Shown here in pieces: positions 16,348 to 28,210 of a stretch of DNA of 60,832 nucleotides (its first letter is position 1; every line of letters begins with the position of its first letter). Below the pieces are notes generated by a model that saw only the letters and a list, made by a program, of their open reading frames with translations, had not been told where the DNA came from and searched no databases. A program made the translations under genes and the position numbers. The stretch comes from Nitrospirota bacterium (GTDB lineage Bacteria; Nitrospirota; Thermodesulfovibrionia; Thermodesulfovibrionales; UBA9159), in the NCBI GenBank assembly GCA_023382175.1, contig JAMCQB010000142.1:1-60832 (forward strand), read 5' to 3'.

Positions 16348-16845
16348 TTGACTACCACCGTCTTAGGTCTGGGCAATATCCTGTTGAGGGACGAGGGAGT
16401 CGGGGTTCATGCGGTAAACACCATCAAGGGACGGTATGCCTTTCCTCCTGATGTGGAGGTTATTGATGGCGGGACCTTGGGCCTCGACCTCCTTCCCCTT
16501 ATCGAAGACAGGGACAGGATTCTCTTCGTGGATGCCGTGGACTTCGGGAAGGAACCCGGCCACATCGGCATAATTGATGATGATGCCATCCCCTCTACCC
16601 TCCTGGCAAAGATGTCGGTTCACCATATCGGGCTCTCCGACGTGCTCTTTGCCGCAAAACTCCTGGACATAAAGCCGTCAAAAATCCGTCTTATCGGCAT
16701 ACAGCCTCAGTCCCTTGACGTAGGCCTTGATATGACCGAGTGCATCAGTGGTAAAATGGAAGTGATTATCAGCATGATCCTCGAAACATTAAAGGAGTGG
16801 AACATAGAATGTGCCTTGCGGTCCCCTCAGAAATTGTCAGCATAA
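16348..16845 (+). CDS. Hydrogenase maturation endopeptidase (HyaD/HybD family)
   Basis: 165 aa, TTG start. VLGLGNILLRDEGVGVHAV and DAVD motifs. Confidence 0.9.
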   Translation: MTTTVLGLGNILLRDEGVGVHAVNTIKGRYAFPPDVEVIDGGTLGLDLLPLIEDRDRILFVDAVDFGKEPGHIGIIDDDAIPSTLLAKMSVHHIGLSDVLFAAKLLDIKPSKIRLIGIQPQSLDVGLDMTECISGKMEVIISMILETLKEWNIECALRSPQKLSA

Positions 16846-17054
16846 ACGACCTCATGGCCACCATTGATGTGAACGGCGCACGGCGGGATATCAGCCTCAT
16901 GCTCCTCCCCGAAGAAGCTCAGGTGGGGGATTTTGTGATCGTGCATGCGGGCTTTGCCATCCAGAAGATCGACAGGGAGGCCGGCCAGGAGGCCCTCAGA
17001 CTGATAAAAGAGCTGGTGGAATCCGAAGAGTTCAAGGCAGAATACATGGAGTGA
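16809..17054 (+). CDS. hypC: Hydrogenase assembly chaperone HypC/HupF family
   Basis: The start is moved to the ATG at 16809, so the protein begins MCLAVPSEIV; the N-terminal Cys2 is essential in this family. Overlaps the protease gene. Ends with TGA at 17052-17054. Confidence 0.85.
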   Translation: MCLAVPSEIVSINDLMATIDVNGARRDISLMLLPEEAQVGDFVIVHAGFAIQKIDREAGQEALRLIKELVESEEFKAEYME

Positions 17055-17656
17055 AACGGTATATCCTCGCCATATCAGGCGCCAGCGGCTCTGTGTTCGG
17101 CGTCAGGGTCCTGGAAGCCATCCTTAGAAAGTCAGAAGTCCATCTTGTCATCTCTTCGCAGTCATTTTCGATCATCAGGCACGAAACCGGCATAGACTGG
17201 TCAGGAAAGACCGATGCCGAGGTGCAGAAAAAGATAAGGACATACTTCAGATCCCGCAGGATTCACTATTACAATGAAACCGATCTCGCTGCCCCCCTTT
17301 CCAGCGGCTCTTTTATCACAGACGGCATGCTCGTGGTGCCCTGTTCCATGAAGACCCTTTCAGGCATCGCTCATGGCTACGCAAACAACCTCACTGAACG
17401 GGCAGCGGATGTGACGATAAAAGAAGGAAGGCCCCTGCTTCTCGCTCCACGGGAAATGCCTTTCAGCGCAATTCATCTCGAAAACATGCTAAGGCTTGCA
17501 CGGATTGGGGTGAAGATAGCGCCTCCCGTGCCTGCGTTCTACCAGAAACCGAAAGAGCTTAGCGATATCGTTGATTTCGTTGCAGGGAAGATACTGGATT
17601 CCTTCGGCATCCCTCACGATCTCTTCACAAGATGGGGAGGACAAGAGACTACCTGA
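17051..17656 (+). CDS. ubiX: Flavin prenyltransferase UbiX
   Basis: 201 aa, GTG start. ISGASGSVFGVRVLE N-terminus and VVPCSMKTLSGIAHGYANNL motif. Confidence 0.9.
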   Translation: MKRYILAISGASGSVFGVRVLEAILRKSEVHLVISSQSFSIIRHETGIDWSGKTDAEVQKKIRTYFRSRRIHYYNETDLAAPLSSGSFITDGMLVVPCSMKTLSGIAHGYANNLTERAADVTIKEGRPLLLAPREMPFSAIHLENMLRLARIGVKIAPPVPAFYQKPKELSDIVDFVAGKILDSFGIPHDLFTRWGGQETT

Positions 17657-20522
17657 AAAGCCCATTCAGAAGCTTGTCCACAGTTCTGGGGTCTCTACAT
17701 TCTATGAGTTGCCATTTCCCATAGCCACTGTGATAGTTGACAGCCTTAACCCACCGTTCTGTTGCCGTCCTTTTCTGCCTGTCCTGTTCGGATTCATAGC
17801 CTTTTACCTCAAGGATCACCGTGGATTCGCCGCTATCGGTACTGCACCTTATCAGGAAGTCGGGATAGTAATAGTGCCGGACACCGAGGAAGTCATAGGG
17901 TATCGAGAAGTCGAGATGGTCATTCTTCACATAGGAAACGACGTTCGGATTATCCTCAAGGTAAAACGATACCGTGTGCTCCCATGAGCGGTTATCAGTA
18001 ACTACGTGGCTTACGTGGCTCTTCAATGTCGGATGCGCCCTTCTCACCGTACGGAAAAGAACCTCAGAAGTCGATCCTTTGGGCCTGAATCTTTCGATGA
18101 TCGGTAACAACGGGGCTTCACCTTCATCAACAGCGGGTTCAATAGCGGCAAGCAATCTTTCGACAATGAGTTGTATATACTTCTCAAGCGCTATCTCATT
18201 CGGCTTTGCATCAATGAATCTGACCTTCTCCTCAATAAACCTTTTCACAATAGACAAGACCTGCGGGAAAAGAATCTCCCTTGCCTGCCACTGAAATTTC
18301 TCCCTATCCTTCAACGAATTCGTTATTCTCCTGGCAATCTCGAAGATGATTTCTTTCAGCCGCCTTGTCTCATGGAAAGGATTTCGATCCTGATATGCCT
18401 CTTTGCCGGGACCCAACCGTGTGGGGAAGCCGATTTTGTATCCGACCGCACCCTTAACCACAACCTTAGTCGGCTCTTTGCTGGGGTCTACGGTGATTTC
18501 TTTCAGCTTAGACATATCAATCTTTATTCTGCTCTTCACATCAAAGACGAATCCCTCCACACGCGGAAATTCTATCTTCAGATGAACTCGATCCTTCAAT
18601 GCCTGTACAAGCGTTGAAGGCGGCGGAGGCGGTGTCGGCCCCTTACCCTTCTTCTTTACGGGGATGACCTCAAAGGGTATGCCGTACACGTCGACATATT
18701 CCTCCGGCAGCATCCCGGTTTCATCAAGTGTGTAGTTCATCCGTCTAAGACCTCGGCCGACGACCTGTTCGCAAAGAAGCTGGGATGTGAACGCTCTTAA
18801 TCCGAATATCTGTGTCACGTTGTTTGCGTCCCATCCTTCGGTAAGCATACCTACAGACACGACGCATCTCACATCCTTGCCCGGAGGATCGCCTTGGCCT
18901 TGCCATTCGGTCTTGCCGACTGTTGCAACTCTTAATCTCAATCCCTGCGCCACTTCCTGTTTTGTCTGTGTGCCGTCCTCACTTTCGGCTTCTCCCAAAA
19001 GCTTTGTGTCGATCCTCATGCTGGGCTGGAAGGACTCACTATTTCCCAATAAGTCAGGGAATAGCTTACCAGCGGTAAATATCCTCTGTTTTTCGACCTT
19101 CTTCTCCCCACTAATATATTCAAAGATTAGCTCTGCAAGGTCTGTATTATCACAAACACAGATCATCACGGGCGGGACAGGGAAGTCGTCCCTCTCGAAG
19201 TCCTTAAAGGTCTTCTTCCATTCCCCTGCGAGCATGGTAAGAGCGCCTTCTGCTTCTCTGAAAACGGATTCGGGCTTTGGTTTCCTTCTCTGTGTCGCCT
19301 TCTCGGCTCCGGGTAAAGATTCGTTTATAGTTCTCCATAAATGGAAATACTTAGGTATGGGCTGTCCCGAATTATCATCAACCGGAACTCGTGGTATTTT
19401 GACGATACCGCTTTCAATGGCATCCACAAGACCGAAGTCAGATACAAGCCAGGGCAACGGCGACCCTTCGGGATAGCCGCTCCCCTGGATATAGAAAGGC
19501 GTTGCCGACAAGTCAACGCAAAGGTTAATCTTCCGAGCAAAGTTTATCTTGTCCAGTCCGCCGATCCAAATCGTGGCTTCCTCTTTCTCTTCCTTTAGAT
19601 TTTTCCTTTCTTCGCCGCTAAGTTTCTTCAGTTCCTCTTCATTCTCAAATGGCGCGGGTCTGTAAGCATGATGTGCCTCGTCATTGAAGACCAGTATGTT
19701 TTCCTTGCCTGATAACTCCTTGAGTGTCCTGTTACAAAAAGCCCTCTCGCTTTCTTCCCCGCGTTGTATGACGCTTCTCTTCTTGCTGTCATCAACGGGT
19801 AAGAAAGAATGCCAGTTGGTTATGAAAAACTTCCCTTTTGAAAGCATATCGAGCATTGAACGGGGAACGAGATCGAACTTTTCATAGTAGTTCTCCGGAT
19901 TTGACGGATAAAGAACGGACAGGCGTTCTTTTACCGTAAGGTTCGGACATACCACCAGTACCGCATCTGAAAACCTCTTGTCTTGCCTGTACTGTGCTTT
20001 GTTGATCACAGACCATGCTGCAAGCATTGCCATGACAAGAGTCTTTCCACTTCCCGTCGCCATTTTGCAGCCGTACCGCTTTAATGGTTTATATCCTTTT
20101 GCAAGGTCCGACTCTGCGGGAAGGTCTGGCGGGATGGTTATGCCTTTCGGGTTCTTCGGCATTATCTCGGTCAGATAGATGATCGTCTCAACTGCTTCTA
20201 CTTGACAGAAGAACAGCTTTCTTTCTCTATCGGGTAAATTCCAATGTTGAAGCAGTCTTTCGGTAACTCCTGTGCCCCCTTTATATCCACCGTCGCGCCA
20301 TTCCTTGACCCTCTGCCGTATTTTGTTGATCAGCTCAAGCTCTTTGAACTGTTCTTCAACAAATAATGCAACCTGAGTATCAGCCCTCTTCCCCGTTCGG
20401 AAATAATATCCGGCGGGACGTCTGCCTGACATCTTCTTCGGCTGCCCTTCGTCATAAATCCAGTATTCCTTCGGCTCCTCGAAGGGATTGTTCAGGATCG
20501 GATTATCAACGGCAAGTGACAT
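17649..20522 (-). CDS. res: Type III restriction endonuclease, Res subunit (SF2 helicase plus PD-(D/E)xK nuclease)
   Basis: 957 aa. Helicase motif I MATGSGKT and motif II FNDEAHHAY. C-terminal nuclease YYPDFLIRC...VILEVKG. The 3' end overlaps the 3' end of ubiX by 8 nt (convergent). Confidence 0.9.
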   Translation of the reverse strand: MSLAVDNPILNNPFEEPKEYWIYDEGQPKKMSGRRPAGYYFRTGKRADTQVALFVEEQFKELELINKIRQRVKEWRDGGYKGGTGVTERLLQHWNLPDRERKLFFCQVEAVETIIYLTEIMPKNPKGITIPPDLPAESDLAKGYKPLKRYGCKMATGSGKTLVMAMLAAWSVINKAQYRQDKRFSDAVLVVCPNLTVKERLSVLYPSNPENYYEKFDLVPRSMLDMLSKGKFFITNWHSFLPVDDSKKRSVIQRGEESERAFCNRTLKELSGKENILVFNDEAHHAYRPAPFENEEELKKLSGEERKNLKEEKEEATIWIGGLDKINFARKINLCVDLSATPFYIQGSGYPEGSPLPWLVSDFGLVDAIESGIVKIPRVPVDDNSGQPIPKYFHLWRTINESLPGAEKATQRRKPKPESVFREAEGALTMLAGEWKKTFKDFERDDFPVPPVMICVCDNTDLAELIFEYISGEKKVEKQRIFTAGKLFPDLLGNSESFQPSMRIDTKLLGEAESEDGTQTKQEVAQGLRLRVATVGKTEWQGQGDPPGKDVRCVVSVGMLTEGWDANNVTQIFGLRAFTSQLLCEQVVGRGLRRMNYTLDETGMLPEEYVDVYGIPFEVIPVKKKGKGPTPPPPPSTLVQALKDRVHLKIEFPRVEGFVFDVKSRIKIDMSKLKEITVDPSKEPTKVVVKGAVGYKIGFPTRLGPGKEAYQDRNPFHETRRLKEIIFEIARRITNSLKDREKFQWQAREILFPQVLSIVKRFIEEKVRFIDAKPNEIALEKYIQLIVERLLAAIEPAVDEGEAPLLPIIERFRPKGSTSEVLFRTVRRAHPTLKSHVSHVVTDNRSWEHTVSFYLEDNPNVVSYVKNDHLDFSIPYDFLGVRHYYYPDFLIRCSTDSGESTVILEVKGYESEQDRQKRTATERWVKAVNYHSGYGKWQLIECRDPRTVDKLLNGLFR

Positions 20523-20527
20523 GATTG

Positions 20528-20902
20528 TCAGTTCCCATGTCTGTGAATTCTGTATCCCGCTTCTGCAAGAACGATAACGAAAGACTTCTCAACTCTGATA
20601 AATTCTTTCTCATACTCGAATACATCAAGAATGTTTTTGACTATTCGCGCTATATTGATAAGGTGATGCCTCAGCAGGATTACCTTGCCACTTCCCCATA
20701 GTGCCCCAAACTCGATGAGTCCTCCGAAATCCTTGTCACCTGATAGCAGAATCAAATTGTGTTTTATTGCATATGCCAGAATCTTCTCATCGCTGCTGCC
20801 GGCGAGACCTATCTCAGGAACATAAAACACACCATACCCCTCATCTCGCAAACCTTGAACGATATCGCTATGGACATTTTCATCAGCAAGTATTTTGACC
20901 AT
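20528..20902 (-). CDS. DUF5615 family PIN-like (Mut7-C-like) putative toxin
   Basis: 124 aa. MVKILADENVHSDIVQGLRDEGYGV...LILLSGDKDFG matches the DUF5615 signature. Starts 2 nt after the DUF433 gene. Confidence 0.8.
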   Translation of the reverse strand: MVKILADENVHSDIVQGLRDEGYGVFYVPEIGLAGSSDEKILAYAIKHNLILLSGDKDFGGLIEFGALWGSGKVILLRHHLINIARIVKNILDVFEYEKEFIRVEKSFVIVLAEAGYRIHRHGN

Positions 20903-20904
20903 TA

Positions 20905-21147
20905 CTATTTTCTGCCGGAAAATATCCGCACTTCCTCGCCCTGAAACTGTCTTGCGGCAAAATCCAGCGCTGCTTTCAGTCCCTCTTTTGTGAGTGTCGG
21001 ATAGCCGTGCAGGATATCATCTTTAGACATGCCGGATGCGATATTTTGCAGAATCAATGCAACAGATATCCTCGTGCCTTTAACAATAGGCTTTCCATTG
21101 AGAATCTTTGGGTCTGAAACAATCAATGCTTTTTGACGCGTTGCCAT
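20905..21147 (-). CDS. DUF433 family putative antitoxin
   Basis: 80 aa. DPKILNGKPIVKGTRISVALILQNIASGMSKDDILHGYPTLTKEGLKAAL is the classic DUF433 pattern. GGGAGGT RBS. Abuts the upstream gene with a 0-nt gap. Confidence 0.85.
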   Translation of the reverse strand: MATRQKALIVSDPKILNGKPIVKGTRISVALILQNIASGMSKDDILHGYPTLTKEGLKAALDFAARQFQGEEVRIFSGRK

Positions 21148-21990
21148 TTACTTACCTCCCTTTAGAATGTCAGCTAATGACGCTCCGAGAAACCCGGATG
21201 ATATATCTTTAAATCCAATATAATCTAAGAATATTTTTGCACGATGAGATGCAACATAAGTGTTATCGGTTATCGTAATCATATTATTAAGCCGCAATAC
21301 ATCAATTGTTACTGAGATATTGCTTTGAGCTATACCGAAAGCGATTGCCTGCGAATAAATTTCTAAGGCAGTGGCTGTGCCCTTATTAACGAGCCATAAC
21401 AAAAGCCGTTTTGTGTTGTAGACAAGAAAATTGGTCAGATTATTAAATTCCGCAATTTCTTTTTCAATAAAAAGACGGTTTATAGCATCCCTGGCTTCTT
21501 TAAGCTCATCTTGAAGTTGAGCGACGGTTTGATTCTGTCTGGTTGAATATTCCTCCCATTGCTTTAAAAGACTATAATATTCTTTGTTTTCGTTAATTAA
21601 CTGGGCCATTAACTCCTTAGTTGCTGGTTCATCCTTTTTTTCTAAAGAAGTCTCGCTTGCTGGGATGGTCACCTGAACATTTTGACTTTGCTGCGCCTGA
21701 TGGGTAAGAACAATTGTATTTAATGTGGTTGAGAGTTTCTCTTGTTCTTTTGCTACTTTTTCAACCTCTTTTTTAATTGAGAGAAGCGAGCCTACACTGA
21801 TCTCTTTCACGTCATCATAAATTAAAAAAAATAATAGCAATACTAAAGCAGTCAACAGTTCAAAAGACAACTTAAAATTCCAGAACGTTGAATACACTAT
21901 AAAGAAAATAACAATACCGGCAAATATCCATCGCCACCAAGTTTTATTTTTTTCTTTCATCTCATTGTTCTTGTCGTTCACTTCAGCCAT
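21148..21990 (-). CDS. Uncharacterised membrane-anchored coiled-coil protein with a wHTH-like C-terminal domain
   Basis: 280 aa with a GAAGGAG RBS. Two N-terminal TM helices (WWRWIFAGIVIFFIVYSTFW, LTALVLLLFFLIY). A long charged, Gln-rich helical region. C-terminus KRLLLWLVNKGTATALEIYSQAIAFGIAQSNISVTIDVLRLNNMITI resembles a winged helix. AT-rich. Confidence 0.6.
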   Translation of the reverse strand: MAEVNDKNNEMKEKNKTWWRWIFAGIVIFFIVYSTFWNFKLSFELLTALVLLLFFLIYDDVKEISVGSLLSIKKEVEKVAKEQEKLSTTLNTIVLTHQAQQSQNVQVTIPASETSLEKKDEPATKELMAQLINENKEYYSLLKQWEEYSTRQNQTVAQLQDELKEARDAINRLFIEKEIAEFNNLTNFLVYNTKRLLLWLVNKGTATALEIYSQAIAFGIAQSNISVTIDVLRLNNMITITDNTYVASHRAKIFLDYIGFKDISSGFLGASLADILKGGK

Positions 21991-22034
21991 TGCTTATTGA
22001 CTCCTTCTGCGACCATGCTTTATCGATAAATAAT

Positions 22035-22931
22035 TCAACACACGCCCTCAAGTCGAATTTTTAAAAACTTCTGCCGAGAAATATCCCCACCAGTTTTACC
22101 AATATATTCATCTATAATTTGTTTTGCCTCAGCTTTCGATAGTAACTGCCATAGTATTGCCTCGGACATACATAAAAAAGCAAATGTAATTACAGAAAGC
22201 GAAATATTGAAGTTCTTCCCCTCGTTTTCAGTTATGCCTGATAACAAATGATCAATGGAATCATAGTTATGTTTCTTTCTGAGACGATAAAGACAGTCGA
22301 GTAAAGACACATCCTTACAATCAATATTGCATATTCTCTTCCATTTTTTTCTTGGATGTTTGTGGTTTCGCCACTTTTCTGTCTGATGTTCCTCAAAAGT
22401 TGTTCTGCACCATAGAGCAATGTAATCAGAGCTGTTATGATATTTGGAAAGAGGATTTATCTTTTTTACAGGGCCTGCTAAATTGCTGAAACCATTTTTC
22501 CCATAACAAACATTGAAAGGATAAAGAAAGCCAAAAACAGAACTGTCCTGCGCAAATCTGTTCAGCAAGTCATTATGGCTGAACCTTGATGTTCCCAAAT
22601 ATAACTCATAAAGTGCACGCAGAGATAAGAAACATACATAATATGCTTGAACAATTTTCCAACCAAGGAAGTAGATGATATCGACTGCATTAATATCAAA
22701 ATAAAATTCTTGATGAAGATTCATCTCAGTAAGCCAGCAGTTATGTAAAGTTTTTCTGACATTGTCCATATCAACATCTGAACATCTGCTTACAGAAGTT
22801 GATACTTTTTGCGATAGGATTCCTTGACGTAACTTTCTAAAATCAAGCTCTCCATTTGCATAGCTATCTATACTTGCTTTTCTTATGTGATAAAGATAAT
22901 TTGATAGAACAGTAAATTTTATTCCTTCCAT
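22035..22931 (-). CDS. Uncharacterised protein with a candidate HEPN Rx4H motif
   Basis: 298 aa, no TM segment or signal peptide. LYRLRKKHNYDS (R216-x4-H221; nt 22269-22286) fits the HEPN Rx4-6H signature. AT-rich. Starts 9 nt after the mod stop. Confidence 0.55.
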   Translation of the reverse strand: MEGIKFTVLSNYLYHIRKASIDSYANGELDFRKLRQGILSQKVSTSVSRCSDVDMDNVRKTLHNCWLTEMNLHQEFYFDINAVDIIYFLGWKIVQAYYVCFLSLRALYELYLGTSRFSHNDLLNRFAQDSSVFGFLYPFNVCYGKNGFSNLAGPVKKINPLSKYHNSSDYIALWCRTTFEEHQTEKWRNHKHPRKKWKRICNIDCKDVSLLDCLYRLRKKHNYDSIDHLLSGITENEGKNFNISLSVITFAFLCMSEAILWQLLSKAEAKQIIDEYIGKTGGDISRQKFLKIRLEGVC

Positions 22932-22940
22932 TTTGATTAT

Positions 22941-25535
22941 TTATCCTATCTCCCTCACTACCATAACCTCATTCCCTCTGTGGTCGATGACCTTGACGGC
23001 GATACGTTTCTCTTTGCCTAATTTGAAGGGCAGGGAACGGGTGCTGGTGAGGAGTTCAAACTTGTCTTCATCGATAGATGCTTTTAATGCTCTTTTTAGC
23101 CTGTCCCAGGCGCTGGAATCAGGGAAGAATGCCTGTGATATGCAGAAAGTGCGTTTATCGTAGTCGGTATCTATGAACCATGCGGCGATCTTGCTTCCAT
23201 TGTCTGAATAAACTTCTCCTGTCAGTGGGTCATAGATGTCAACCCCTTTTAGGATTACCTGGAATTCGGCCTCTTCCGAAAATCCCCCCTTGCCCCCTCC
23301 GGAATCATAACTCCCCCTTCCCCCTCTTATCTTAAGAGGGAGTGCCGAAGGCGGAGGCGTTATTATCTCAACATCGGGTTCGCCGAAAACGGTAAACAAC
23401 TGACTTGCGGCTGTGGTCTTCAGTAGATCACCCATCAGCACATCGGGGCGGATATGGGAATAAAAGACCTTTATTTTCGGGTGTCTGACATCCTGAGCAG
23501 CGGCGTCGAAGGCAAAGCCGCAAAAGATAATCGCATTATACCCGCTCAAATACGCATCATGAATCCCGTCCTCGACCTGCCTCACGGTAACAGGTCCGTG
23601 TGGCGGCCCGAAGGATACGGCCACTTTCTTGATGCCATTTTTTTCAACGGGTTCTCCTTCAGCGTGGATGAACCCACTGCTTACCGGTATCAGGTTCTCG
23701 AATTTCATCTTCTTGTTGCCAGGGAACGTCACCCCATCTTTACGGAAAAGCTCAATAAGGGTATGGACATGGTTATCGGCGTCTACTCTTATTGTGTCAT
23801 TCCGAGCGGAGCGAGGAATCTCGTCTTTAGATTGCTTCGTCGCTTCACTCCTCGCAATGACAGCCGCTTCGGTCTCATAATTAGCTTCTTCAAAATCCAG
23901 TGTCGAATGTTGAGGTATCCCCTCTACGGTAAAAGGGCCTGCAACCCTTATTTTTTTCTTGTCAATCTCAGGCTTATCGAACAGGATTTCCTTGTCAGGT
24001 TGTCCATTCTGCGCAATAGATTTCAATGTCACGTGGGGAACTTCCTCATAGATAAAACCGCCCTTGACACCCATTTCCTCATCGGCAATCTTGTAATATG
24101 GGTAAGCAGCAGTCATCAGTCTTTGCCTTGCTATTGTAAGGGCTACTCTTGATGTGTCACAAGTTATCCAGCGCCTTCCCCATTGCTCTGCAACGAATGC
24201 AGTTGTGCCACTGCCGCATGTGGGATCGAAAACCAAATCCCCAGCATCTGAGGTCATAAGAATGCATCGCTGTATCGGCAGGTCTGCCGTTTGAACTACA
24301 TAAACCTTCGATGTAAATGTTCCAATTATGGTATCGTTCCATACATTCACAAGTGGCATAACGGGGAAATCGTCTTCGTACCGCTTGTAAGCTAAGATAC
24401 TCCCAAGCGAAATAATGCGGTTAGCTTCACGAAGTCCTTCCATTCCTTCTTTATTAGTAGACCAATGTCTTCCCTTAGATGGAAAGTACCCCTTACCTTC
24501 AAACTTAAATTCAAATGATCCAGCTTTTGTTTCTCCTTGTCCTGAGATGTCAGCTGCTCGAAACCGTCTACCTTCGGGCAGTTCTACATCACCTTTCATT
24601 TCATCTTTGCTTAAGCGTCTGCACGTTCCATCTGGCAATTCAATCCACGAGAATGTTCCTAAGTCTGTTCTTTCAACTTTTGGAACATATAACTGGCGAT
24701 ATTTAACCTGTGATATATCTTTTGCATACCATAAAATATAGTCATAGCTACTTGATAATAGCTTGCCAATTAGAGCAGCTGTTTTTGCAAATGTGATCAT
24801 TCCACAGAAGTTCTCTTTACCAAATACCTCATCCATCAACTCCCTCACATGATGCAGATTCTCATCCGATATCTGAACAAAGATGCTTCCGGAATCTGTC
24901 AATAGATCGCGACTCAATAGTAATCTGTCTCTCAGGTATGAGAGATATGAATGTATCCCCAGCTCCCATGTGTCACGATATGCCTTGATCTGTTCGGGTT
25001 CCCGCACCATGAATTCATCCGAATCCTTCACGTCCCTTTGCTTAACAGAAGGCTGGAAGTTTGAGGAAAACTTGACGCCGTATGGAGGGTCAACGAAGAT
25101 AGTCTGGACCTTTCCGCCCATCATTTCCCGCTCAAGAAGGGAATTCATGACCAACAGGGAATCACCGAGAATAAGTCTATTAGTCCAATCCATCTCATGC
25201 TGATAAAATTCAACAAGAGTTTTTAGGGGCATGTCAGGTTTAGCAAATAAATCAGGTTGAGGGCTTTCTCTTTTAATTGAGCGGATTATCGCTTCGGGTG
25301 CGACATTTTCATGGATATGCAAGGATACTGTGGGAACTTCAAAGGAGGTATGTTCTTTCTTCCCTGACCAAATCAGTTGCGGGTCAAGATGGGGATCGTA
25401 GTCGTATTTTTTTGGTTTCGGCTTCGAGGTATCATACGAGGCAAGACCTACGGGGACAGCATTTTTCCGTGTTTCGGCTTCATGCCGATAGGAATCTATA
25501 TCATCTTCACCTGAATTCCTTTTCTTCTTGGCCAT
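22941..25535 (-). CDS. mod: Type III restriction-modification DNA methyltransferase, Mod subunit (beta-class N6A/N4C methyltransferase)
   Basis: 864 aa. Catalytic motif IV IFVDPPYG precedes the AdoMet motif I VFDPTCGSGTTAFVA (beta-class order), with an AT-rich variable region between them. Carries two repeat-derived in-frame segments. Confidence 0.9.
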   Translation of the reverse strand: MAKKKRNSGEDDIDSYRHEAETRKNAVPVGLASYDTSKPKPKKYDYDPHLDPQLIWSGKKEHTSFEVPTVSLHIHENVAPEAIIRSIKRESPQPDLFAKPDMPLKTLVEFYQHEMDWTNRLILGDSLLVMNSLLEREMMGGKVQTIFVDPPYGVKFSSNFQPSVKQRDVKDSDEFMVREPEQIKAYRDTWELGIHSYLSYLRDRLLLSRDLLTDSGSIFVQISDENLHHVRELMDEVFGKENFCGMITFAKTAALIGKLLSSSYDYILWYAKDISQVKYRQLYVPKVERTDLGTFSWIELPDGTCRRLSKDEMKGDVELPEGRRFRAADISGQGETKAGSFEFKFEGKGYFPSKGRHWSTNKEGMEGLREANRIISLGSILAYKRYEDDFPVMPLVNVWNDTIIGTFTSKVYVVQTADLPIQRCILMTSDAGDLVFDPTCGSGTTAFVAEQWGRRWITCDTSRVALTIARQRLMTAAYPYYKIADEEMGVKGGFIYEEVPHVTLKSIAQNGQPDKEILFDKPEIDKKKIRVAGPFTVEGIPQHSTLDFEEANYETEAAVIARSEATKQSKDEIPRSARNDTIRVDADNHVHTLIELFRKDGVTFPGNKKMKFENLIPVSSGFIHAEGEPVEKNGIKKVAVSFGPPHGPVTVRQVEDGIHDAYLSGYNAIIFCGFAFDAAAQDVRHPKIKVFYSHIRPDVLMGDLLKTTAASQLFTVFGEPDVEIITPPPSALPLKIRGGRGSYDSGGGKGGFSEEAEFQVILKGVDIYDPLTGEVYSDNGSKIAAWFIDTDYDKRTFCISQAFFPDSSAWDRLKRALKASIDEDKFELLTSTRSLPFKLGKEKRIAVKVIDHRGNEVMVVREIG
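23281..23342. repeat. Palindromic G/C-tract element (family E-like) lying in frame inside mod
   Basis: The minus strand reads ctccctcttaagataagagggggaagggggag...ggagggggcaaggggggatt and encodes PLKIRGGRGSYDSGGGKGGF. It has an 8-bp hairpin CCCTCTTA/TAAGAGGG and resembles 44650..44686. Confidence 0.45.
23796..23861. repeat. MITE-like palindromic element, family B, inserted in frame (66 nt = 22 codons) inside mod
   Basis: gtcattccgagcggagcgaggaatctcg...gattgcttcgtcgcttcactcctcgcaatgac. The minus strand encodes VIARSEATKQSKDEIPRSARND. A related intergenic copy is at 55579..55658. Confidence 0.7.
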
Positions 25536-25569
25536 AACCCCTACTCCACCGAAGATACACGATTTCGGA

Positions 25570-25854
25570 TTAAGCTACCGCTTTTTCCGGTTTCATCCAT
25601 GCTGGCAGAGGCTCCCCAGTTGCCTCATGATAAAGCGTCTCAGGCGCAATGTCCAGACCATCGGGCCAGCACAATGCTCCGATTTCCTTGTTCACGTAAA
25701 ACTGTTTAAAATATCCGATATCGGAGAAGCGGCTGAAAACGCCGCCTTTTTGGCTATGGTCCTTCAAATCAACAATCCCCTGTTGGCCATTTTCGAAGAT
25801 AAGTTCAAGTTTATATCCTTCAATATACCTTGCTTCCAAAACATCATAATACAT
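25570..25854 (-). CDS. DUF2442 domain protein
   Basis: The start is placed at the ATG at 25854, with an AGGAGG RBS 5 nt upstream. MYYDVLEARYIEGYKLELIFENGQQGIVDLKD...ALCWPDGLDIAPETLY matches the DUF2442 pattern. The ORF-track extension to 25947 belongs to the shifted DUF4160 tail. Confidence 0.75.
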   Translation of the reverse strand: MYYDVLEARYIEGYKLELIFENGQQGIVDLKDHSQKGGVFSRFSDIGYFKQFYVNKEIGALCWPDGLDIAPETLYHEATGEPLPAWMKPEKAVA

Positions 25855-25925
25855 TATGACCTCCTGGTACTTCAGGGGTTCTATCGGGAACAAAGGCTTT
25901 TGATCTCTTGCCAATTCCCAATCTT

Positions 25926-26117
25926 TCAATAATTCCTCTCCGCCCATTCTATCACAAGCCCTAAAGCTTCCGGCGGCAAATATCCTTCCAGTATTGCAAA
26001 GTCCTCAATTCTTACCGCTATCGAATAACTCCCGTATCTTGCATGAAAATGAGGAGGATTGTGATCATCAAAAAACATTGCTATGACTATGCCAAAGAAT
26101 CTGCTTATCTCAGGCAT
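25926..26117 (-). CDS. DUF4160 family protein, apparently truncated by a frameshift
   Basis: ATG at 26117 with an AGGAG RBS. MPEISRFFGIVIAMFFDDHNPPHFHARYG is the DUF4160 signature. It stops after ...VIEWAERNY, while the expected tail (EELLKDWELARDQKPLFPIEPL) continues in the -1 frame. Confidence 0.6.
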   Translation of the reverse strand: MPEISRFFGIVIAMFFDDHNPPHFHARYGSYSIAVRIEDFAILEGYLPPEALGLVIEWAERNY

Positions 26118-26125
26118 TGTGGCTC

Positions 26126-26228
26126 CTATATGATGCAAGCCCCACAGGAACATCATTCTTCCGCGTTTCGGCTTCGTGACGATAGGAATCTAGATCTTCT
26201 TCTTTCTTCCGGGCCCTCTTTGCCAATT
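26126..26228 (-). pseudogene. Remnant second copy of the mod 5' end (about 35 codons)
   Basis: The minus strand reads TTG-AKRARKKEEDLDSYRHEAETRKNDVPVGLASY, compared with the mod N-terminus MAKKKRNSGEDDIDSYRHEAETRKNAVPVGLASY. By eye the nucleotide identity to 25433..25532 is roughly four-fifths. The remnant ends overlapping the DUF4160 start codon. Confidence 0.6.
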
Positions 26229-26377
26229 TCCCCTCCAAAACCAGACCTGGTAACGTATAGACAAATTATATCTTAGGTGAAAGGCATTTTTAAAGGTAAA
26301 TCAACAACTTTCCGCTGATTTCCATTTATTATGATTTATCTCATACCCCCCTGAAAATAATCTGATATAATAGAAGT

Positions 26378-26620
26378 ATGCTTAAGGAAGGATGTCCGGG
26401 AAGCAAGGAGATTAGAAACCCCTATCCCGAGGAGATACAATGTTTCTGGTGTGAAACCTCTAATGAGATATGGAGTGATGAGGTGGAGATAGCCTGCAAA
26501 CACTGCGGAAAAACGATCTCGAGGGAAATGGGGGTTACCTGCCTTCAATGGTGCCCTGCTGCAAGGGAATGCGTGGGCGCTGAAAAGTATGACAGGCTGA
26601 TGAAGGCAGTAAAAAAATAG
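26378..26620 (+). CDS. Small cysteine-rich (zinc-ribbon-like) protein
   Basis: 80 aa with Cys pairs CFWC...CKHC and C..WC....EC. A TATAAT box at 26363-26368 lies immediately upstream, so the mRNA may be nearly leaderless. Function unknown. Confidence 0.5.
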   Translation: MLKEGCPGSKEIRNPYPEEIQCFWCETSNEIWSDEVEIACKHCGKTISREMGVTCLQWCPAARECVGAEKYDRLMKAVKK

Positions 26621-26774
26621 TATCAGCTTATCAAACACTTTCTAAGCCCTTACCCTTCCCCACTTGCAGCCGTTTCTCCCTGTATTTTCCACGATGGGTC
26701 GATTGCATTCTCTGCATTTACCTGATATTATTTACTAGAGGGAGCCATTCGGCGACCTCTTCTGCGGAGGATAT

Positions 26775-27578
26775 ATGAGGAGAAAGCCGGCAGTTGCAGG
26801 GCAATTTTACCATGGAACATCTGCAAAACTCAGCCATCAAGTCCAGCAGTATATAACGAAGAATCTTCCGAAGGAGCATGCCCTGGGTATCCTTTCCCCC
26901 CATGCAGGGCTTATCTATTCCGGTGCAGTGGCGGGCGAGGTCTACTCGAGAATCGCCTTACCCGAAACCTTCATATTGCTCGGCCCCAATCACACCGGAC
27001 TTGGTGCGCGCATGGCCATAATGTCCGAGGGGGAATGGGAAATACCCACAGGGATATTCCAGATCGATGAAAAACTCGGCCGAAGGATTCTTGCGAATGC
27101 GCCTCTGGTCTCGAGTGATACGCAGGCCCATATGTTTGAGCACTCCCTTGAGGTTCAGCTCCCCTTTATTGCCCACTTCTCGAGAAATTCAAAAATTGTC
27201 CCCTTGACCGTCATGTCAGCAACCCTTGAGGAGTGCAGGAGTGTGGGAGAGGGAATAGCAAAATCCATTAAGGAGACAGACTATCCTGTAGTTATTGTTG
27301 CAAGCTCTGATATGAGCCACTATGTATCCGATGAGGTGGCACACAAAAAGGATAAAATGGCCATTGATAAAATCCTCTCCCTCGACCCGGAAGGTCTCTT
27401 CAGTGTTGTGAGAAAAGAGCAGATCTCCATGTGCGGATATCTGCCTGCAACCATGATGCTCTTTGCGGCAAAATCCCTCGGCGCCAGGGGCGCAAAACTC
27501 ATAAAATACGCCACGTCAGGGGACGTGAGTGGTGATTATGATGCTGTGGTCGGTTACGCGGGTGTTATTGTATCGTAG
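26775..27578 (+). CDS. MEMO1-family protein (AmmeMemoRadiSam system protein B)
   Basis: 267 aa. MRRKPAVAGQFY N-terminus, ILSPHAGLIYSG and SSDMSHY motifs typical of Memo-like proteins. Confidence 0.85.
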   Translation: MRRKPAVAGQFYHGTSAKLSHQVQQYITKNLPKEHALGILSPHAGLIYSGAVAGEVYSRIALPETFILLGPNHTGLGARMAIMSEGEWEIPTGIFQIDEKLGRRILANAPLVSSDTQAHMFEHSLEVQLPFIAHFSRNSKIVPLTVMSATLEECRSVGEGIAKSIKETDYPVVIVASSDMSHYVSDEVAHKKDKMAIDKILSLDPEGLFSVVRKEQISMCGYLPATMMLFAAKSLGARGAKLIKYATSGDVSGDYDAVVGYAGVIVS

Positions 27579-27590
27579 GGCAGAAACATC

Positions 27591-27707
27591 AGGGGTTCAA
27601 GGATTTAAGGGGTCGAGGGGTCAAGTGATTCTTCAATCCTGTTGACACTTTTCCATTCTTTTGTTTTTTCTCTTGAACCCTTGAATCCCTGCCCCTTGAA
27701 CCCTTTT
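27591..27707. repeat. MITE-like palindromic element, family C (GGGTTCAAGG repeats)
   Basis: aggggttcaaggatttaaggggtcgaggggtcaag ... cttgaacccttgaatccctgccccttgaaccc forms imperfect inverted arms around a T-rich core that contains a TTGACA box. Confidence 0.65.
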
Positions 27708-28210
27708 TGTGAGTTGCACTTTCTCCTTGCCCAAATACCATGATTTCTGGTATAAATAAAGTAAGTTCAGCTTGAGGGCAGTTTGCCTGCCCTGTTTGTG
27801 ATGGGTGAAAAAAGTTGATCCGGCAAATTAGATCTTTTGGGAGTCAGAGTAAGGAGTGCGGTGTGCATGCCGGGCATTCATTTGCCCGGAAGCCTGAAGG
27901 CTCCTTCAAGACACCCACCTATATTGTAGGCGGATCTAATTCTTCACTGACACGGCAGGGCGGGTTTATTTTGCGGGTTCTCATGATCGCTTTGCTTTTT
28001 GCGAGGAATTTAAATAAAAAAATAGAGGAGTCTGGTAAAATGCCTACCTTCACCAGGGGTTGCCCCATTTCAGGCAGCCGGAAAGACCGACCTGTTCCGG
28101 AAGATTCCTCTTCATTCCAAAGCGTATTTTCTTTCCTGCTCTCCTCGCAATAGCATAATAGACACAGCAAGCCCGCGCTACCCTCATCGGAAATATACTA
28201 CGAAAGGGGG

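What the first reader, a model, noticed from the sequence alone, without database searches (positions are those of the whole stretch)
17649..25535. Type III R-M system whose mod and res genes are split by a four-gene insert: a candidate composite defence operon
- Type III systems are normally a contiguous mod-res pair.
- Here six genes are co-oriented on the minus strand: mod (25535-22941), a 298-aa unknown, a 280-aa unknown, DUF433, DUF5615, and res (20522-17649).
- The intergenic gaps are only 9, 44, 0, 2 and 5 nt, so res is most likely transcribed through the insert.
- The insert holds a recognisable toxin-antitoxin pair (DUF433 / PIN-like DUF5615) and two proteins I cannot assign to any named defence system.
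- The 20528-22931 stretch is visibly AT-rich. Sampled 60-nt lines are about 33-40% G+C, against about 53-62% in res and the flanking chromosome. This points to a separately acquired module.
- The island is bounded on the left by the 8-nt convergent overlap with ubiX, and on the right by a mod 5' remnant at about 26228. No integrase or transposase is present.
- Embedding extra effectors between the methylase and the nuclease would tie their expression to the R-M system. That could mean a backup abortive-infection layer or an addiction module. This is inference.
Basis: partly seen in the sequence, partly recalled or inferred. Interest (0 to 1): 0.85.

Follow-up and report, generated by a model that had tools for sequence, protein, structure and literature searches.

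The report
Defence-gene cassette slot inside restriction operon
An intact restriction-modification operon of a Nitrospirota bacterium carries several unrelated small gene cassettes between and ahead of its two genes, and in relatives the same slot holds known anti-phage systems, so the two unknown proteins here are new anti-phage candidates, although embedding of this kind is already known in other defence systems.

Summary
All six genes lie at the stated coordinates, co-oriented, with gaps of 9, 44, 0, 2 and 5 nt. Mod is a type III methyltransferase and Res is a full-length BPTD_3080-family endonuclease; both have intact motifs.

Two corrections:
- Only the two unknowns are AT-rich (35-36% G+C, against 46-48% for mod/res).

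The insert is not one four-gene module. P298, P280 and the DUF433/PIN-like pair each occur elsewhere without the others.

In 11 of 11 close relatives with both genes on one contig, mod and res are split by 1.0-4.1 kb. Each locus carries a different array in that gap. Contents include SIR2-APAZ/short pAgo, HEC-01, PDC-S02, SIR2, Fic and several TA pairs; Zorya and HerA modules lie just upstream of res in partial loci. Three more distant relatives have mod and res contiguous.

Short copies of the res or mod 5' ends separate cassettes in several arrays. This suggests exchange by homologous recombination, without an integrase.

P298 belongs to an unannotated superfamily of at least 219 representatives. 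P280 is a membrane-anchored coiled-coil protein with a winged-helix domain. Both are under purifying selection and neither is in PADLOC. Embedding itself is already described for Hma, BREX, DISARM and type I R-M.

The parts
26265..26294 (-). Best sigma-70-like promoter match (TTTAAA-18-TATAAT), upstream of the whole cluster; the candidate operon promoter.
   Evidence: 10 of 12 matches; position read. A consensus match only, not evidence of function.
26110..26226 (-). Mod 5' stub. A 38-codon ORF (TTG start behind a GGAGGGG RBS) copies mod codons 1-34. Its TGA stop overlaps the probable DhiT start.
   Evidence: tblastn 73.5% identity to mod residues 1-34; sequence and translation.
26128..26202 (.). 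Copy 2 of a 75-nt direct repeat, 83% identical to 25434-25508 inside the mod 5' end. Together the two copies bracket the DhiT/DhiA cassette, 694 nt apart.
   Evidence: the repeat finder family D1.
25926..26117 (-). DUF4160 / DhiT-like toxin gene. The probable start is the ATG at 26117 with AGGAG 8 nt upstream; the ORF finder's start at 26156 is probably too long.
   Evidence: Pfam DUF4160 7.8e-17. NCBIfam toxin_DhiT 70.7 bits, below the 100-bit cut-off, with the match starting at residue 14 of the long ORF. Sequence.
25570..25947 (-). DUF2442 / DhiA-like antitoxin gene. The probable true start is the ATG at 25854, after an AGGAGG.
   Evidence: Pfam DUF2442 7.5e-17. NCBIfam antitoxin DhiA 36 bits, far below its cut-off. 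Sequence.
22941..25535 (-). mod: type III beta-class N6-adenine DNA methyltransferase, 864 aa, intact.
   Evidence: PADLOC MTase_III 8.5e-188; Pfam N6_N4_Mtase. DPPY at residue 149 comes before FDPTCGSG at 436.
22035..22931 (-). P298: cassette 1, an all-helical protein of an unannotated superfamily; a candidate defence gene.
   Evidence: 12 close clusters; 219 superfamily representatives; no named family; dN/dS 0.07. Contexts.
21148..21990 (-). P280: cassette 2, with two N-terminal hydrophobic helices, a long coiled coil and a C-terminal winged-helix domain; a candidate defence gene.
   Evidence: 23 clusters. The AF2 C-terminal domain has pLDDT about 90. Foldseek top hits are MarR-type winged helices, best E 2e-3. 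Hydropathy and dN/dS 0.12. Contexts.
20905..21147 (-). DUF433 protein, the predicted antitoxin of cassette 3.
   Evidence: Pfam 4.9e-22. The same pair lies directly before res in L028 and L047.
20528..20902 (-). DUF5615 / PIN_10 PIN-like protein, the predicted toxin of cassette 3.
   Evidence: Pfam 1.3e-19 and 4e-6.
17649..20522 (-). res: BPTD_3080-family restriction endonuclease, 957 aa, intact. It combines an SF2 helicase with a C-terminal PD-(D/E)xK nuclease.
   Evidence: NCBIfam NF046055 1026 bits against a cut-off of 800. Pfam ResIII and a weak TnsA-like N-terminal match. GSGKT at 157, DEAH at 281, SAT at 339, QVVGR at 586, PD...EVK at 887-907.

Best explanation
The locus is an intact type III-like restriction-modification operon (Mod plus a BPTD_3080-family Res). 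In this Nitrospirota/anammox lineage the operon acts as a standing insertion slot for independent defence and toxin-antitoxin cassettes.

In the window, three unrelated cassettes sit between mod and res: P298, P280 and the DUF433/PIN-like pair. A fourth, DhiT/DhiA-like, sits between a duplicated mod start and mod.

Shown:
- Gene identities, order, co-orientation and spacing.
- The split is universal in close relatives, with different content in each.
- Many occupants of the slot are recognised anti-phage systems.
- Each window cassette occurs elsewhere without the others.
- Short copies of the res or mod 5' ends lie between cassettes in several arrays.
- P298 and P280 are under purifying selection.

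Inferred:
- The whole cluster is transcribed from the promoter-like site upstream of the mod stub.
- Cassette genes are translationally coupled to the retained ends of the R-M genes.
- Cassettes are exchanged by homologous recombination through the conserved gene termini (mod 5', mod 3', res 5'), without a dedicated recombinase.
- The TA pairs help stabilise the array.
- P298 and P280 are stand-alone anti-phage genes that add a second layer behind restriction, rather than subunits of the R-M enzyme.

My mechanistic guesses for the two unknowns carry low confidence. P298 may be a HEPN-like helical RNase effector acting by abortive infection. P280 may be a membrane-anchored, oligomerising DNA-binding sensor or effector.
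For: **Identity and integrity of mod and res:**

**Split is the rule.** The window plus L014, L020, L022, L025, L026, L036, L037, L038, L042 (L041 is near-identical) and L051 make 11 of 11 loci with res at least 80% identical and both genes present. Their inserts are 1.0-4.1 kb and co-oriented. No partial locus shows mod next to res. The more distant relatives L027, L043 and L046 (res 43-57% identical) are contiguous.

**Slot contents:**
- SIR2-APAZ plus short pAgo, 1e-129 and 1e-136 (L022).
- HEC-01A/B plus DUF3800 (L025).
- PD-T7-5-like plus PDC-S02/YhcG, 1e-143 (L020).
- NsnA-like DUF262 plus a HEPN-like protein plus MNT/HEPN (L026).
- ZorC/ZorD, 1.9e-224 (L039; partial locus, no mod on the contig).
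- HerA module (L044; partial locus, no mod on the contig).
- SIR2 and SLFN-AlbA_2 (L037).
- Fic (L038).
- 23S_rRNA_IVP, MazF-like and VapBC-like genes.
Sources.

**Cassette independence:**
- P298 without P280: L001-L010.
- P280 without P298: L011-L018 and L071-L073.
- DUF433/PIN before res without the others: L028 and L047.

**Defence contexts of relatives:**
- P298: after a distantly related contiguous mod-res pair in L007; superfamily members next to type IIG R-M plus Abi_C (L033) and next to Shedu SduA_C plus HNH (L035).
- P280: after ZorABCD (L071), after a DUF4011 helicase-nuclease (L073), and before Fic, PIN and MNT-HEPN (L072).

**Stubs:**

**Other:** purifying selection; no phage, plasmid or viral relatives; promoter and terminator scan; published precedent for embedding.
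Against: - No expression or phenotype data exist; co-transcription rests on spacing and consensus scans.
- Promoter-like matches also occur inside the AT-rich genes, so internal promoters are not excluded.
- Some P298 homologues stand alone among housekeeping genes, with host-like G+C and no nearby defence gene (L001-L006).
- P280 in L072 follows a TPR protein, not mod.
- The AlphaFold model of P298 is poor (pLDDT 44).
- The HEPN link is weak: E 1.4e-3 against PDB sequences, hhalign probabilities of 13.7% and 0.1%, and the candidate R-x4-H histidine is not conserved across the superfamily.
- The window's own mod-res array has no internal res stubs. The recombination model therefore rests on other loci and on the mod 5' duplication.
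- Stub discovery is biased, because the scan patterns lie near the ends of res.
- All comparison loci are metagenomic contigs and are phylogenetically related, so the counts are not independent events.
Confidence: 0.7

Rival explanations
1. A functionally integrated composite system. The inserted proteins work with or guard this R-M enzyme, as PrrC does in EcoprrI. They would be held inactive by Mod/Res and released when a phage inhibits restriction.
For: The genes sit inside the operon with tiny gaps and no intergenic terminator-like sites. P298 lies directly after mod in the window and in L008-L010, and after res in L007. P280 directly follows the mod 3' end in L014, L015-type loci, L071 and L073. 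PrrC is an accepted precedent.
Against: Slot content differs in every locus. P298 and P280 each persist where no intact mod or res exists: L001-L006, L011-L018 and L072. P298 also sits beside unrelated systems. There is no sign of co-variation with Mod/Res.
Confidence: 0.13
2. A neutral 'genomic sink' with addiction. The gap tolerates insertions and the TA pairs make them hard to lose. P298 and P280 would be hitch-hikers with non-defence roles, for example a membrane-tethered winged-helix regulator and a housekeeping helical protein.
For: TA pairs are the most frequent occupants. Decayed loci keep the TA cassettes while mod and res are reduced to stubs. Solo P298 copies sit in housekeeping neighbourhoods with host-like G+C. 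P280 has a DNA-binding fold typical of regulators.
Against: The slot also holds multi-gene systems with demonstrated or predicted anti-phage function, which a neutral sink would not enrich. [quoted passage not shown] P298 and P280 show strong purifying selection. Their distant relatives also sit beside defence genes.
Confidence: 0.15
3. An assembly artefact or a dead locus. The split would reflect a chimeric metagenomic contig, or an R-M system already inactivated by the insertion.
For: The window and its relatives appear to be metagenome-derived. Many related loci are clearly decayed.
Against: The same architecture recurs in independent assemblies from different studies. In the window, mod and res are full length with all catalytic motifs. 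The junctions are clean, with start and stop codons a few bases apart.
Confidence: 0.02

Closest known systems
[quoted passage not shown] 2024, bioRxiv 10.1101/2024.01.29.577857)
   Same: Extra, co-oriented genes are nested between the genes of a multi-gene defence system. The occupants are a mix of known systems (HEC-01 and PDC-S02 occur in this very slot), TA-like genes and unknowns. The paper proposes that a single embedded instance is enough to flag a candidate.
   Different: The host here is a type III-like Mod plus BPTD_3080-family Res pair, which is not among the four hosts analysed there. Embedding is universal in the close lineage (11 of 11), against 62.7% for Hma. P298 and P280 are not in PADLOC v2. 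Cassettes here are often bounded by short copies of the host genes' own 5' ends; I did not see that feature mentioned in the sections of the paper I read.
PrrC anticodon nuclease embedded in the EcoprrI type Ic R-M locus
   Same: An effector gene sits inside an R-M operon, which supports the idea of a second-line defence.
   Different: According, PrrC is found almost exclusively embedded in type I R-M, and it is functionally latent in complex with the enzyme. P298 and P280 occur without R-M and show no similarity to PrrC (an ABC ATPase plus a HEPN-type nuclease).
Canonical type III R-M (EcoP1I / EcoP15I type)
   Same: A beta-class N6-adenine Mod lies upstream of a Res that combines an SF2 helicase with a C-terminal PD-(D/E)xK nuclease.
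   Different: Res matches canonical type III Res models only weakly (PADLOC REase_III 1e-7; NCBIfam PRK15483 1.4e-4) and belongs to the separate BPTD_3080 family. In this lineage mod and res are not adjacent.
Integron cassette arrays
   Same: A promoter-proximal platform carries a variable, co-oriented array of promoterless cassettes separated by a recurring boundary sequence.
   Different: There is no integron integrase and no attI/attC. The recurring boundary is a 40-130-nt copy of the start of res (or of mod). Exchange is presumed to be by general homologous recombination, which is an inference.
DhiT/DhiA type II toxin-antitoxin system of Dickeya dadantii (PMC8198452)
   Same: A DUF4160 gene is followed by a DUF2442 gene, toxin first.
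   Different: Both score below the NCBIfam equivalog cut-offs (70.7 against 100 bits; 36 against 200 bits). Here the pair is driven from a retained mod leader inside an R-M operon.

Membership tests
Type III restriction-modification system | Mod is a beta-class N6-adenine methyltransferase, with motif IV (DPPY) before motif I (FxGxG-like). | tested here: met
   DPPY at residue 149 and FDPTCGSG at 436; PADLOC MTase_III 8.5e-188.
Type III restriction-modification system | Res has SF2 helicase motifs plus a PD-(D/E)xK endonuclease domain. | tested here: met
   GSGKT, DEAH, SAT and QVVGR are present, with PD...EVK at 887-907; Pfam ResIII 3.2e-10. Similarity to canonical type III Res models is only weak.
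Type III restriction-modification system | mod and res are adjacent in one operon. | tested here: not met
   2.4 kb and four genes separate them in the window. They are also split in all 11 close relatives, but contiguous in L027, L043 and L046.
Type III restriction-modification system | ATP-dependent cleavage that needs two inversely oriented unmethylated sites, with hemimethylation by Mod. | not testable with these tools
   This is a biochemical property.
NCBIfam NF046055, BPTD_3080 family restriction endonuclease | A full-length match above the curated cut-off. | tested here: met
   1026 bits against a cut-off of 800; residues 5-953 align to profile positions 1-967 of 970.
Embedded defence cassettes (in the sense of Payne et al. 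2024) | Genes are nested between the components of a known multi-gene defence system, in the same orientation. | tested here: met
Embedded defence cassettes (in the sense of Payne et al. 2024) | The same slot holds recognised defence systems in other genomes. | tested here: met
   Short pAgo/SIR2-APAZ, HEC-01, PDC-S02, a PD-T7-5-like gene, an NsnA-like gene and SIR2 lie between mod and res. ZorCD and HerA lie directly upstream of res in partial loci.
Embedded defence cassettes (in the sense of Payne et al. 2024) | Anti-phage activity of the embedded genes (P298, P280). | not testable with these tools
   This needs phage-challenge assays.
PrrC-like guard of an R-M enzyme | The effector occurs (almost) only embedded in its partner R-M system. 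| tested here: not met
   P298 is solo in L001-L006 and sits beside other systems in L033 and L035. P280 occurs in loci without intact mod or res: L011-L018 and L072.
HEPN superfamily (for P298) | A conserved R-x4-6-H catalytic motif. | tested here: not met
   R216-x4-H221 exists in the close family, but H221 is not conserved in the 45-member superfamily alignment. The invariant residues are R216, R218, N222 and Y223.
HEPN superfamily (for P298) | Significant profile or structural similarity to HEPN domains. | tested here: inconclusive
   The profile hits PDB 9xbd/9xbc 'HEPN domain-containing protein' at E 1.4e-3 over the YY...H region. hhalign against a PF05168 HEPN gives 13.7% probability; against another it gives 0.1%. 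The AF2 model is too poor for a fold search.
Type II toxin-antitoxin pair (DUF433 / DUF5615 PIN-like) | Two small adjacent genes of families that recur as a pair, with a PIN-like toxin. | tested here: met
   Pfam hits, a 2-nt gap, and the same pair in L028 and L047. That these two families form TA pairs rests on general knowledge, not on a test here. Toxicity and neutralisation were not tested.
DhiT/DhiA toxin-antitoxin system | A match above the NCBIfam equivalog cut-offs. | tested here: not met
   70.7 against 100 bits and 36.1 against 200 bits. Membership at the Pfam family level (DUF4160/DUF2442) is met.
Integron | An IntI tyrosine recombinase with attI and attC sites. | tested here: not met
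   No recombinase was found in the operon or among the flanking genes tested. No conserved repeats lie at cassette borders in the window. No Rfam family, attC included, matched 16500-27500.

The most novel reading that the evidence does not exclude
The conserved termini of this R-M operon (mod 5', mod 3', res 5') act as built-in homology arms and expression signals. That would make the operon an integrase-free, integron-like platform. Defence cassettes would enter by recombination within about 40-130 nt of the start of res or mod, leaving a short gene-start stub as a boundary. They would then be expressed from the mod promoter by translational coupling, and would keep turning over even after the R-M genes themselves decay to stubs. 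P298 and P280 would be two new anti-phage families carried by this platform.
Probability: 0.35. Interest if true: 0.85.

Novelty: new variant of a known kind. Interest (0 to 1): 0.65.

Why it matters
Embedding of defence genes inside defence operons is a recent and productive discovery principle, so far shown for Hma, BREX, DISARM and type I R-M. This locus contributes four things:

1. **A new host class.** A type III-like R-M family in which the slot is occupied in every close relative examined.
2. **A catalogue of occupants from poorly sampled phyla** (Nitrospirota and anammox bacteria).
3. **Two candidate families absent from current defence databases.** One of them, P298, is the tip of a superfamily with at least 219 representatives.
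4. **A visible footprint of how cassettes may be exchanged.** Gene-start stubs between cassettes speak to the open question of why and how defence genes nest inside one another.

Tried and rejected
- **P298 as a classical HEPN RNase.** The R216-x4-H221 motif seen in the close family is not conserved in the superfamily. Profile comparisons are borderline. I kept this only as a weak lead.
- **Structure route for P298.** The AlphaFold2 model from 13 sequences has pLDDT 44, so no fold search was run on it. The prediction cap stopped a re-run with the deeper superfamily alignment.
- **Named-family searches.** Pfam, NCBIfam, PHROGs and PADLOC give nothing credible for either unknown, and nothing for ten remote P298 relatives.
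- **Phage or plasmid cargo.** There is no tblastn match for P298 or P280 in 50,697 phage records or 72,556 plasmid records, and none in IMG/VR.
- **P298 and P280 as a two-gene system.** Rejected, because they co-occur only in the window.
- **Repeats or att-like sites at cassette borders in the window.** Only the mod 5' duplication was found; the other repeats are short and chance-like.
- **A structured RNA in the region.** No Rfam match at E up to 0.1.
- **The TTTGAAATTTCAAA palindrome as a general boundary element.** It belongs to the 23S_rRNA_IVP cassette and is absent from the window.
- **'P280 always follows the mod 3' end'.** This holds for L014, the L015-type loci, L071 and L073. It fails in L072, where a TPR gene precedes P280, and in the window.
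- **Literature on BPTD_3080.** No paper in the library mentions it.

Full report
**1. The observation**

The gaps of 9, 44, 0, 2 and 5 nt follow from these coordinates.

- Mod matches PADLOC MTase_III at 8.5e-188. It has DPPY at residue 149 before FDPTCGSG at 436, which is the beta-class motif order.
- Res is a full-length member of NCBIfam NF046055, 'BPTD_3080 family restriction endonuclease' (1026 bits against a cut-off of 800). It carries GSGKT, DEAH, SAT and QVVGR helicase motifs and a C-terminal PD...EVK nuclease motif.
- Res matches canonical type III Res models only weakly.
- The 8-nt convergent overlap with ubiX and the mod 5' remnant (26226-26128, mod residues 1-34, 73.5% identity) are both real.

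Two corrections are needed. First, only the two unknowns are strongly AT-rich:

| Gene | G+C |
|---|---|
| P298 | 34.6% |
| P280 | 35.6% |
| DUF433 | 45.3% |
| PIN-like | 42.7% |
| mod | 45.7% |
| res | 48.3% |
| flanks | 50-52% |

It is co-oriented and lies between the remnant and mod.

**2. The 5' end of the cluster**

Reading the minus strand gives this order:

1. The best promoter-like site of the region, TTTAAA-18-TATAAT at 26294-26265.
2. A GGAGGGG ribosome-binding site and a TTG at 26226.
3. A 38-codon ORF that copies mod codons 1-34.
4. A TGA stop that overlaps the probable true DhiT start (ATG at 26117, with AGGAG 8 nt upstream).

The NCBIfam DhiT match begins at residue 14 of the longer ORF called by the ORF finder.

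A 75-nt direct repeat, 83% identical, brackets the DhiT/DhiA cassette: 25434-25508 against 26128-26202. So a cassette sits behind a retained copy of the mod translation start, and an intact mod follows.

Terminator-like sites are no more frequent than chance, and none lies in an intergenic gap on the coding strand. No Rfam family matches the region. Co-transcription of the eight genes is therefore plausible, but it remains an inference.

**3. The two unknowns are real genes of small families**

P298 has 12 close clusters and P280 has 23, out of 5.8 billion sequences. The named sources are Nitrospiraceae. Both alignments show many invariant residues. dN/dS is 0.07 for P298 (window against L008) and 0.12 for P280 (window against L014).

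*P280*
- Two hydrophobic segments, at about residues 21-40 and 45-66.
- A long predicted coiled coil.
- A confidently modelled C-terminal domain (pLDDT about 90, residues 185-260).
- The best structural matches for that domain are MarR-type winged helices, although Foldseek E-values are only about 2e-3.

*P298*
- All-helical, but poorly modelled (pLDDT 44).
- A profile search of 1.84 billion representatives finds 219 proteins at E up to 1e-3. Most are 310-335 aa and aligned nearly end to end, so P298 is the tip of a wider superfamily.
- The superfamily has no Pfam or PADLOC family.
- Its invariant residues are W66, W91, Y97, Y98, H119, R216, R218, N222, Y223 and E257.
- The only hint of a known fold is a borderline profile hit to solved 'HEPN domain-containing protein' chains, E 1.4e-3.
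- A low-probability hhalign match covers the same YY...H stretch, and a second comparison was negative.
- The R-x4-H seen in the close family is not conserved in the superfamily.

**4. The insert is three independent cassettes**

- *P298 without P280:* alone among housekeeping genes (L001-L006), directly after a distantly related contiguous mod-res pair (L007), and between mod and a Schlafen-AlbA_2/HATPase_c_4 gene in the closest relative (L008-L010).
- *P280 without P298:* L014 reads mod-P280-46 aa-MNT-HEPN-DUF2283-res. It also occurs without P298 in L011-L018 and L071-L073.
- *DUF433/PIN-like pair:* directly before res in L028 and L047, without either unknown.

**5. The split is the rule in this lineage, and the slot is hypervariable**

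I mapped mod and res on 14 genome loci and 35 metagenome loci retrieved with Res. Every locus with res at least 80% identical and both genes on the contig is split by a co-oriented insert. That is 11 of 11, each with a different array.

| Locus | Insert | Content |
|---|---|---|
| window | 2.4 kb | P298, P280, DUF433/PIN-like |
| L014 | 2.0 kb | P280, 46 aa, MNT/HEPN, DUF2283 |
| L020 | 2.1 kb | PD-T7-5/PD-T7-1-like, YhcG/PDC-S02 (1e-143) |
| L022 (Ca. Scalindua rubra) | 4.1 kb | SIR2-APAZ (1.5e-129), short pAgo (1.2e-136), MNT fragments |
| L025 | 3.0 kb | HEC-01A (2.4e-56), DUF4276/HEC-01B, DUF3800 |
| L026 | 3.1 kb | GmrSD_N/NsnA-like DUF262, HEPN-like 210 aa, DUF2283, MNT, HEPN |
| L036 | 1.0 kb | 129-aa unknown, 23S_rRNA_IVP |
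| L037 | 3.8 kb | SIR2, 218-aa unknown, SLFN_AlbA_2/HATPase_c_4 |
| L038 | 3.0 kb | PD-T7-5-like, 23S_rRNA_IVP, Fic |
| L042 (L041 is near-identical) | 3.1 kb | 462-aa unknown, 23S_rRNA_IVP, VapBC-like |
| L051 | 1.0 kb | MNT, HEPN, 61 aa |

Partial loci agree:
- ZorC and ZorD (1.9e-224) then YhcG precede res in L039.
- A HerA module, then 23S_rRNA_IVP, then HEPN precede res in L044.
- A MazF-like pair precedes res in L019.

No partial locus shows mod next to res.

The contiguous arrangement appears only in more distant relatives: L043 (57% identical), L027 (44%) and L046 (43%). L030 (37%) has the order res...mod, with other genes between. The ancestral state was therefore probably contiguous. 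The lineage represented here acquired a slot whose content turns over faster than Res diverges.

These loci are related, so the counts are not independent events.

**6. Footprints of how cassettes move**

Across loci, nucleotide homology begins at the res ATG, within a few bases. Everything upstream is cassette-specific.

*Res 5' stubs between cassettes.* Short copies of the res start (about 40-130 nt) lie between cassettes in five independent arrays:
- L038: PD-T7-5-like | stub | IVP | stub | Fic | res.
- L037: SIR2 and 218 aa | stub, stub | AlbA_2 | res.
- L069: SIR2 | stub | IVP | stub.
- L024: stub | IVP | res.
- L031 (the same contig as L064): three stubs, after an AAA ATPase, after MNT-HEPN and after a truncated YhcG.

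*Other footprints:*
- The window's mod 5' stub, DhiT/DhiA, then mod is the same design at the other gene's start.
- Whole systems replace the interior of mod while its ends remain. In L071, ZorABCD lies between mod residues 59-90 and a remnant of the last 13 or so codons. In L073, a DUF4011/AAA_11/AAA_12 helicase-nuclease lies between mod residues 98-116 and a 41-codon 3' stub that is 97.6% identical. In both, P280 follows immediately.
- In L015-L018 an 85-codon 'mini-mod' fuses mod residues 1-48 in frame to the last 37 or so. It is followed by P280, a 67-aa gene, MNT-HepT and a res stub.
- L032 shares the same res breakpoint and the same downstream chromosomal flank (ADH, DeoC) as L015, yet carries different cassettes between the stubs.

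*Model.* The simplest reading is that the conserved gene termini serve as homology arms for recombination. For example, Campbell-type insertion of a circular cassette carrying one copy of the res or mod start would produce 'stub-cassette-gene'.

*Caveats:*
- The model is inferred, not shown.
- The window's own mod-res array contains no res stubs.
- Stub discovery is biased, because two of the scan patterns lie at res residues 18-25 and near the C-terminus.

**7.

They are not phage or plasmid cargo. There is no match in 50,697 phage records, 72,556 plasmid records or IMG/VR.

*P280.* Every context examined is a mod/res-derived array or a defence neighbourhood. In L072 it follows a TPR gene but precedes Fic, PIN_3 and MNT-HEPN.

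*P298.* Contexts are mixed.
- Embedded in or next to R-M: the window, L007 and L008-L010.
- Superfamily members next to a type IIG R-M enzyme and an Abi_C protein (L033), and next to a Shedu SduA_C nuclease and an HNH protein (L035).
- Also solo among housekeeping genes with host-like G+C (L001-L006).

The criterion 'mostly non-defence contexts' is therefore not met for P280, and not clearly met for P298.

**8. Comparison with what is known**

Payne et al. [quoted passage not shown] They report 62.7% of Hma systems occupied and 96.7% of embedded genes co-oriented. They validated several embedded candidates and argue that even one embedded instance flags a candidate. HEC-01 and PDC-S02 from that work occur in the slot described here.

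PrrC in EcoprrI and BrxU in BREX are the classic functional examples. The phenomenon is therefore known.

What I did not find described:
- A type III-like host. A search for BPTD_3080 returns no paper. The later papers citing guilt-by-embedding that I checked do not mention one in the passages retrieved.
- Universal occupancy of the slot within a lineage.
- Gene-start stubs as cassette boundaries.
- The P298 and P280 families themselves, which are absent from PADLOC v2.

This review covers only the held library and the sections I read.

**9. Verdict**

It is one instance of a lineage-wide cassette slot, not a bespoke four-gene module, and a dedicated functional tie to this R-M enzyme is not favoured.

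I file it as a new variant of a known kind. Interest is 0.65.

The most novel reading still open is an integrase-free, integron-like defence platform built from the R-M genes' own termini. I give that about 0.35 probability.

Noticed in passing
L071:1-8549 and L073:1-6615: Whole defence systems sit inside mod. In L071, ZorA-ZorB-ZorC-ZorD lies between mod residues 59-90 and a remnant of the last 13 or so mod codons. In L073, a DUF4011/AAA_11/AAA_12/MTES_1575 helicase-nuclease lies between mod residues 98-116 and a 41-codon mod 3' stub that is 97.6% identical. A P280 homologue follows immediately in both.
   Followed up: partly
L015:2060-4400 (also L011-L018) and L032:689-2219: These are decayed loci at one chromosomal site (ADH/DeoC flank) that share the same res breakpoint at about nt 105. 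L015 has an 85-codon in-frame 'mini-mod' (mod residues 1-48 fused to the last 37 or so), then P280, a 67-aa gene, MNT-HepT and a res stub. L032 has mod residues 1-76, then the 67-aa gene, a 74-aa gene, a PIN gene and a res stub. Cassette content therefore changed after res was truncated.
   Followed up: partly
L055:1835-2172, L056:404-741, L059:9245-9551: Deletion scars. In L055 and L056, mod residues 4-54 are joined directly to res residues 899-957. In L059, res residues 1-50 are joined to 907-956. R-M decay in this family tends to keep the gene ends.
   Followed up: no
L024:978-991, L036:3765-3778, L038:6327-6340, L069:3866-3879, L037:4201-4214, L042:4415-4428, L041:2089-2102: A perfect 14-nt palindrome, TTTGAAATTTCAAA. 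In most of these loci it lies about 15 nt after the stop of the 23S_rRNA_IVP four-helix-bundle cassette and about 11 nt before a res ATG or res stub. It is absent from the window. It could be a terminator, an operator or a recombination site of that cassette.
   Followed up: partly
L037:4226-4355, L069:3891-4042, L031:6399-6540: A res 5' stub variant carries a 28-nt insertion that can form a short GC hairpin (CCCCG...CGGGG). In L037 and L069 it is followed by the start of an AlbA_2-type gene (in L069 at the contig end); in L031 a truncated YhcG follows. An AlbA_2 start remnant also follows plain stubs in L031 (5418) and L038 (6352).
   Followed up: no
window:22933-23163 (+): A 76-aa ORF lies antisense to the conserved mod C-terminus. 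It recurs in relatives, for example L020:7669-7902 (-). This is probably a by-product of conservation on the coding strand rather than a gene.
   Followed up: no
window:24310-24810 (about mod residues 243-410): The central part of mod shows no nucleotide similarity to any related locus, while both flanking parts are 70-82% identical. This fits a swapped or fast-evolving target-recognition domain, so these systems probably differ in specificity.
   Followed up: no
L065:286-3156: A 590-aa transposase-like ORF on the opposite strand lies next to a P280 homologue that is broken into fragments of 194 and 75 aa. It is the only mobility-type gene I saw inside one of these arrays, and it was not checked against a family library.
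   Followed up: no
L019:446-965, L066:569-1085, L031:7771-8287; orphan copies at L015:3322-3525, L028:116-319, L032:1143-1346: A conserved 67-aa gene (MKAYEYYA...) is paired with a PemK/MazF-like toxin in three loci, so it is a likely antitoxin. In several other arrays it occurs without the toxin.
   Followed up: partly
L001:10001-10894 and L005:10001-10894: Solo P298 homologues (62-65% identical) sit among housekeeping genes with host-like G+C (52-53%). Embedded copies have 34-36%. This suggests either long residence in the chromosome or a non-defence role in those genomes.
   Followed up: partly
window:14192-17656 and 26775-29782: The cluster lies between a NiFe hydrogenase large subunit, cytochrome b and UbiX on one side, and a Memo-like protein and RNase Y on the other. 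This is an ordinary chromosomal setting with no mobility genes among those tested.
   Followed up: yes
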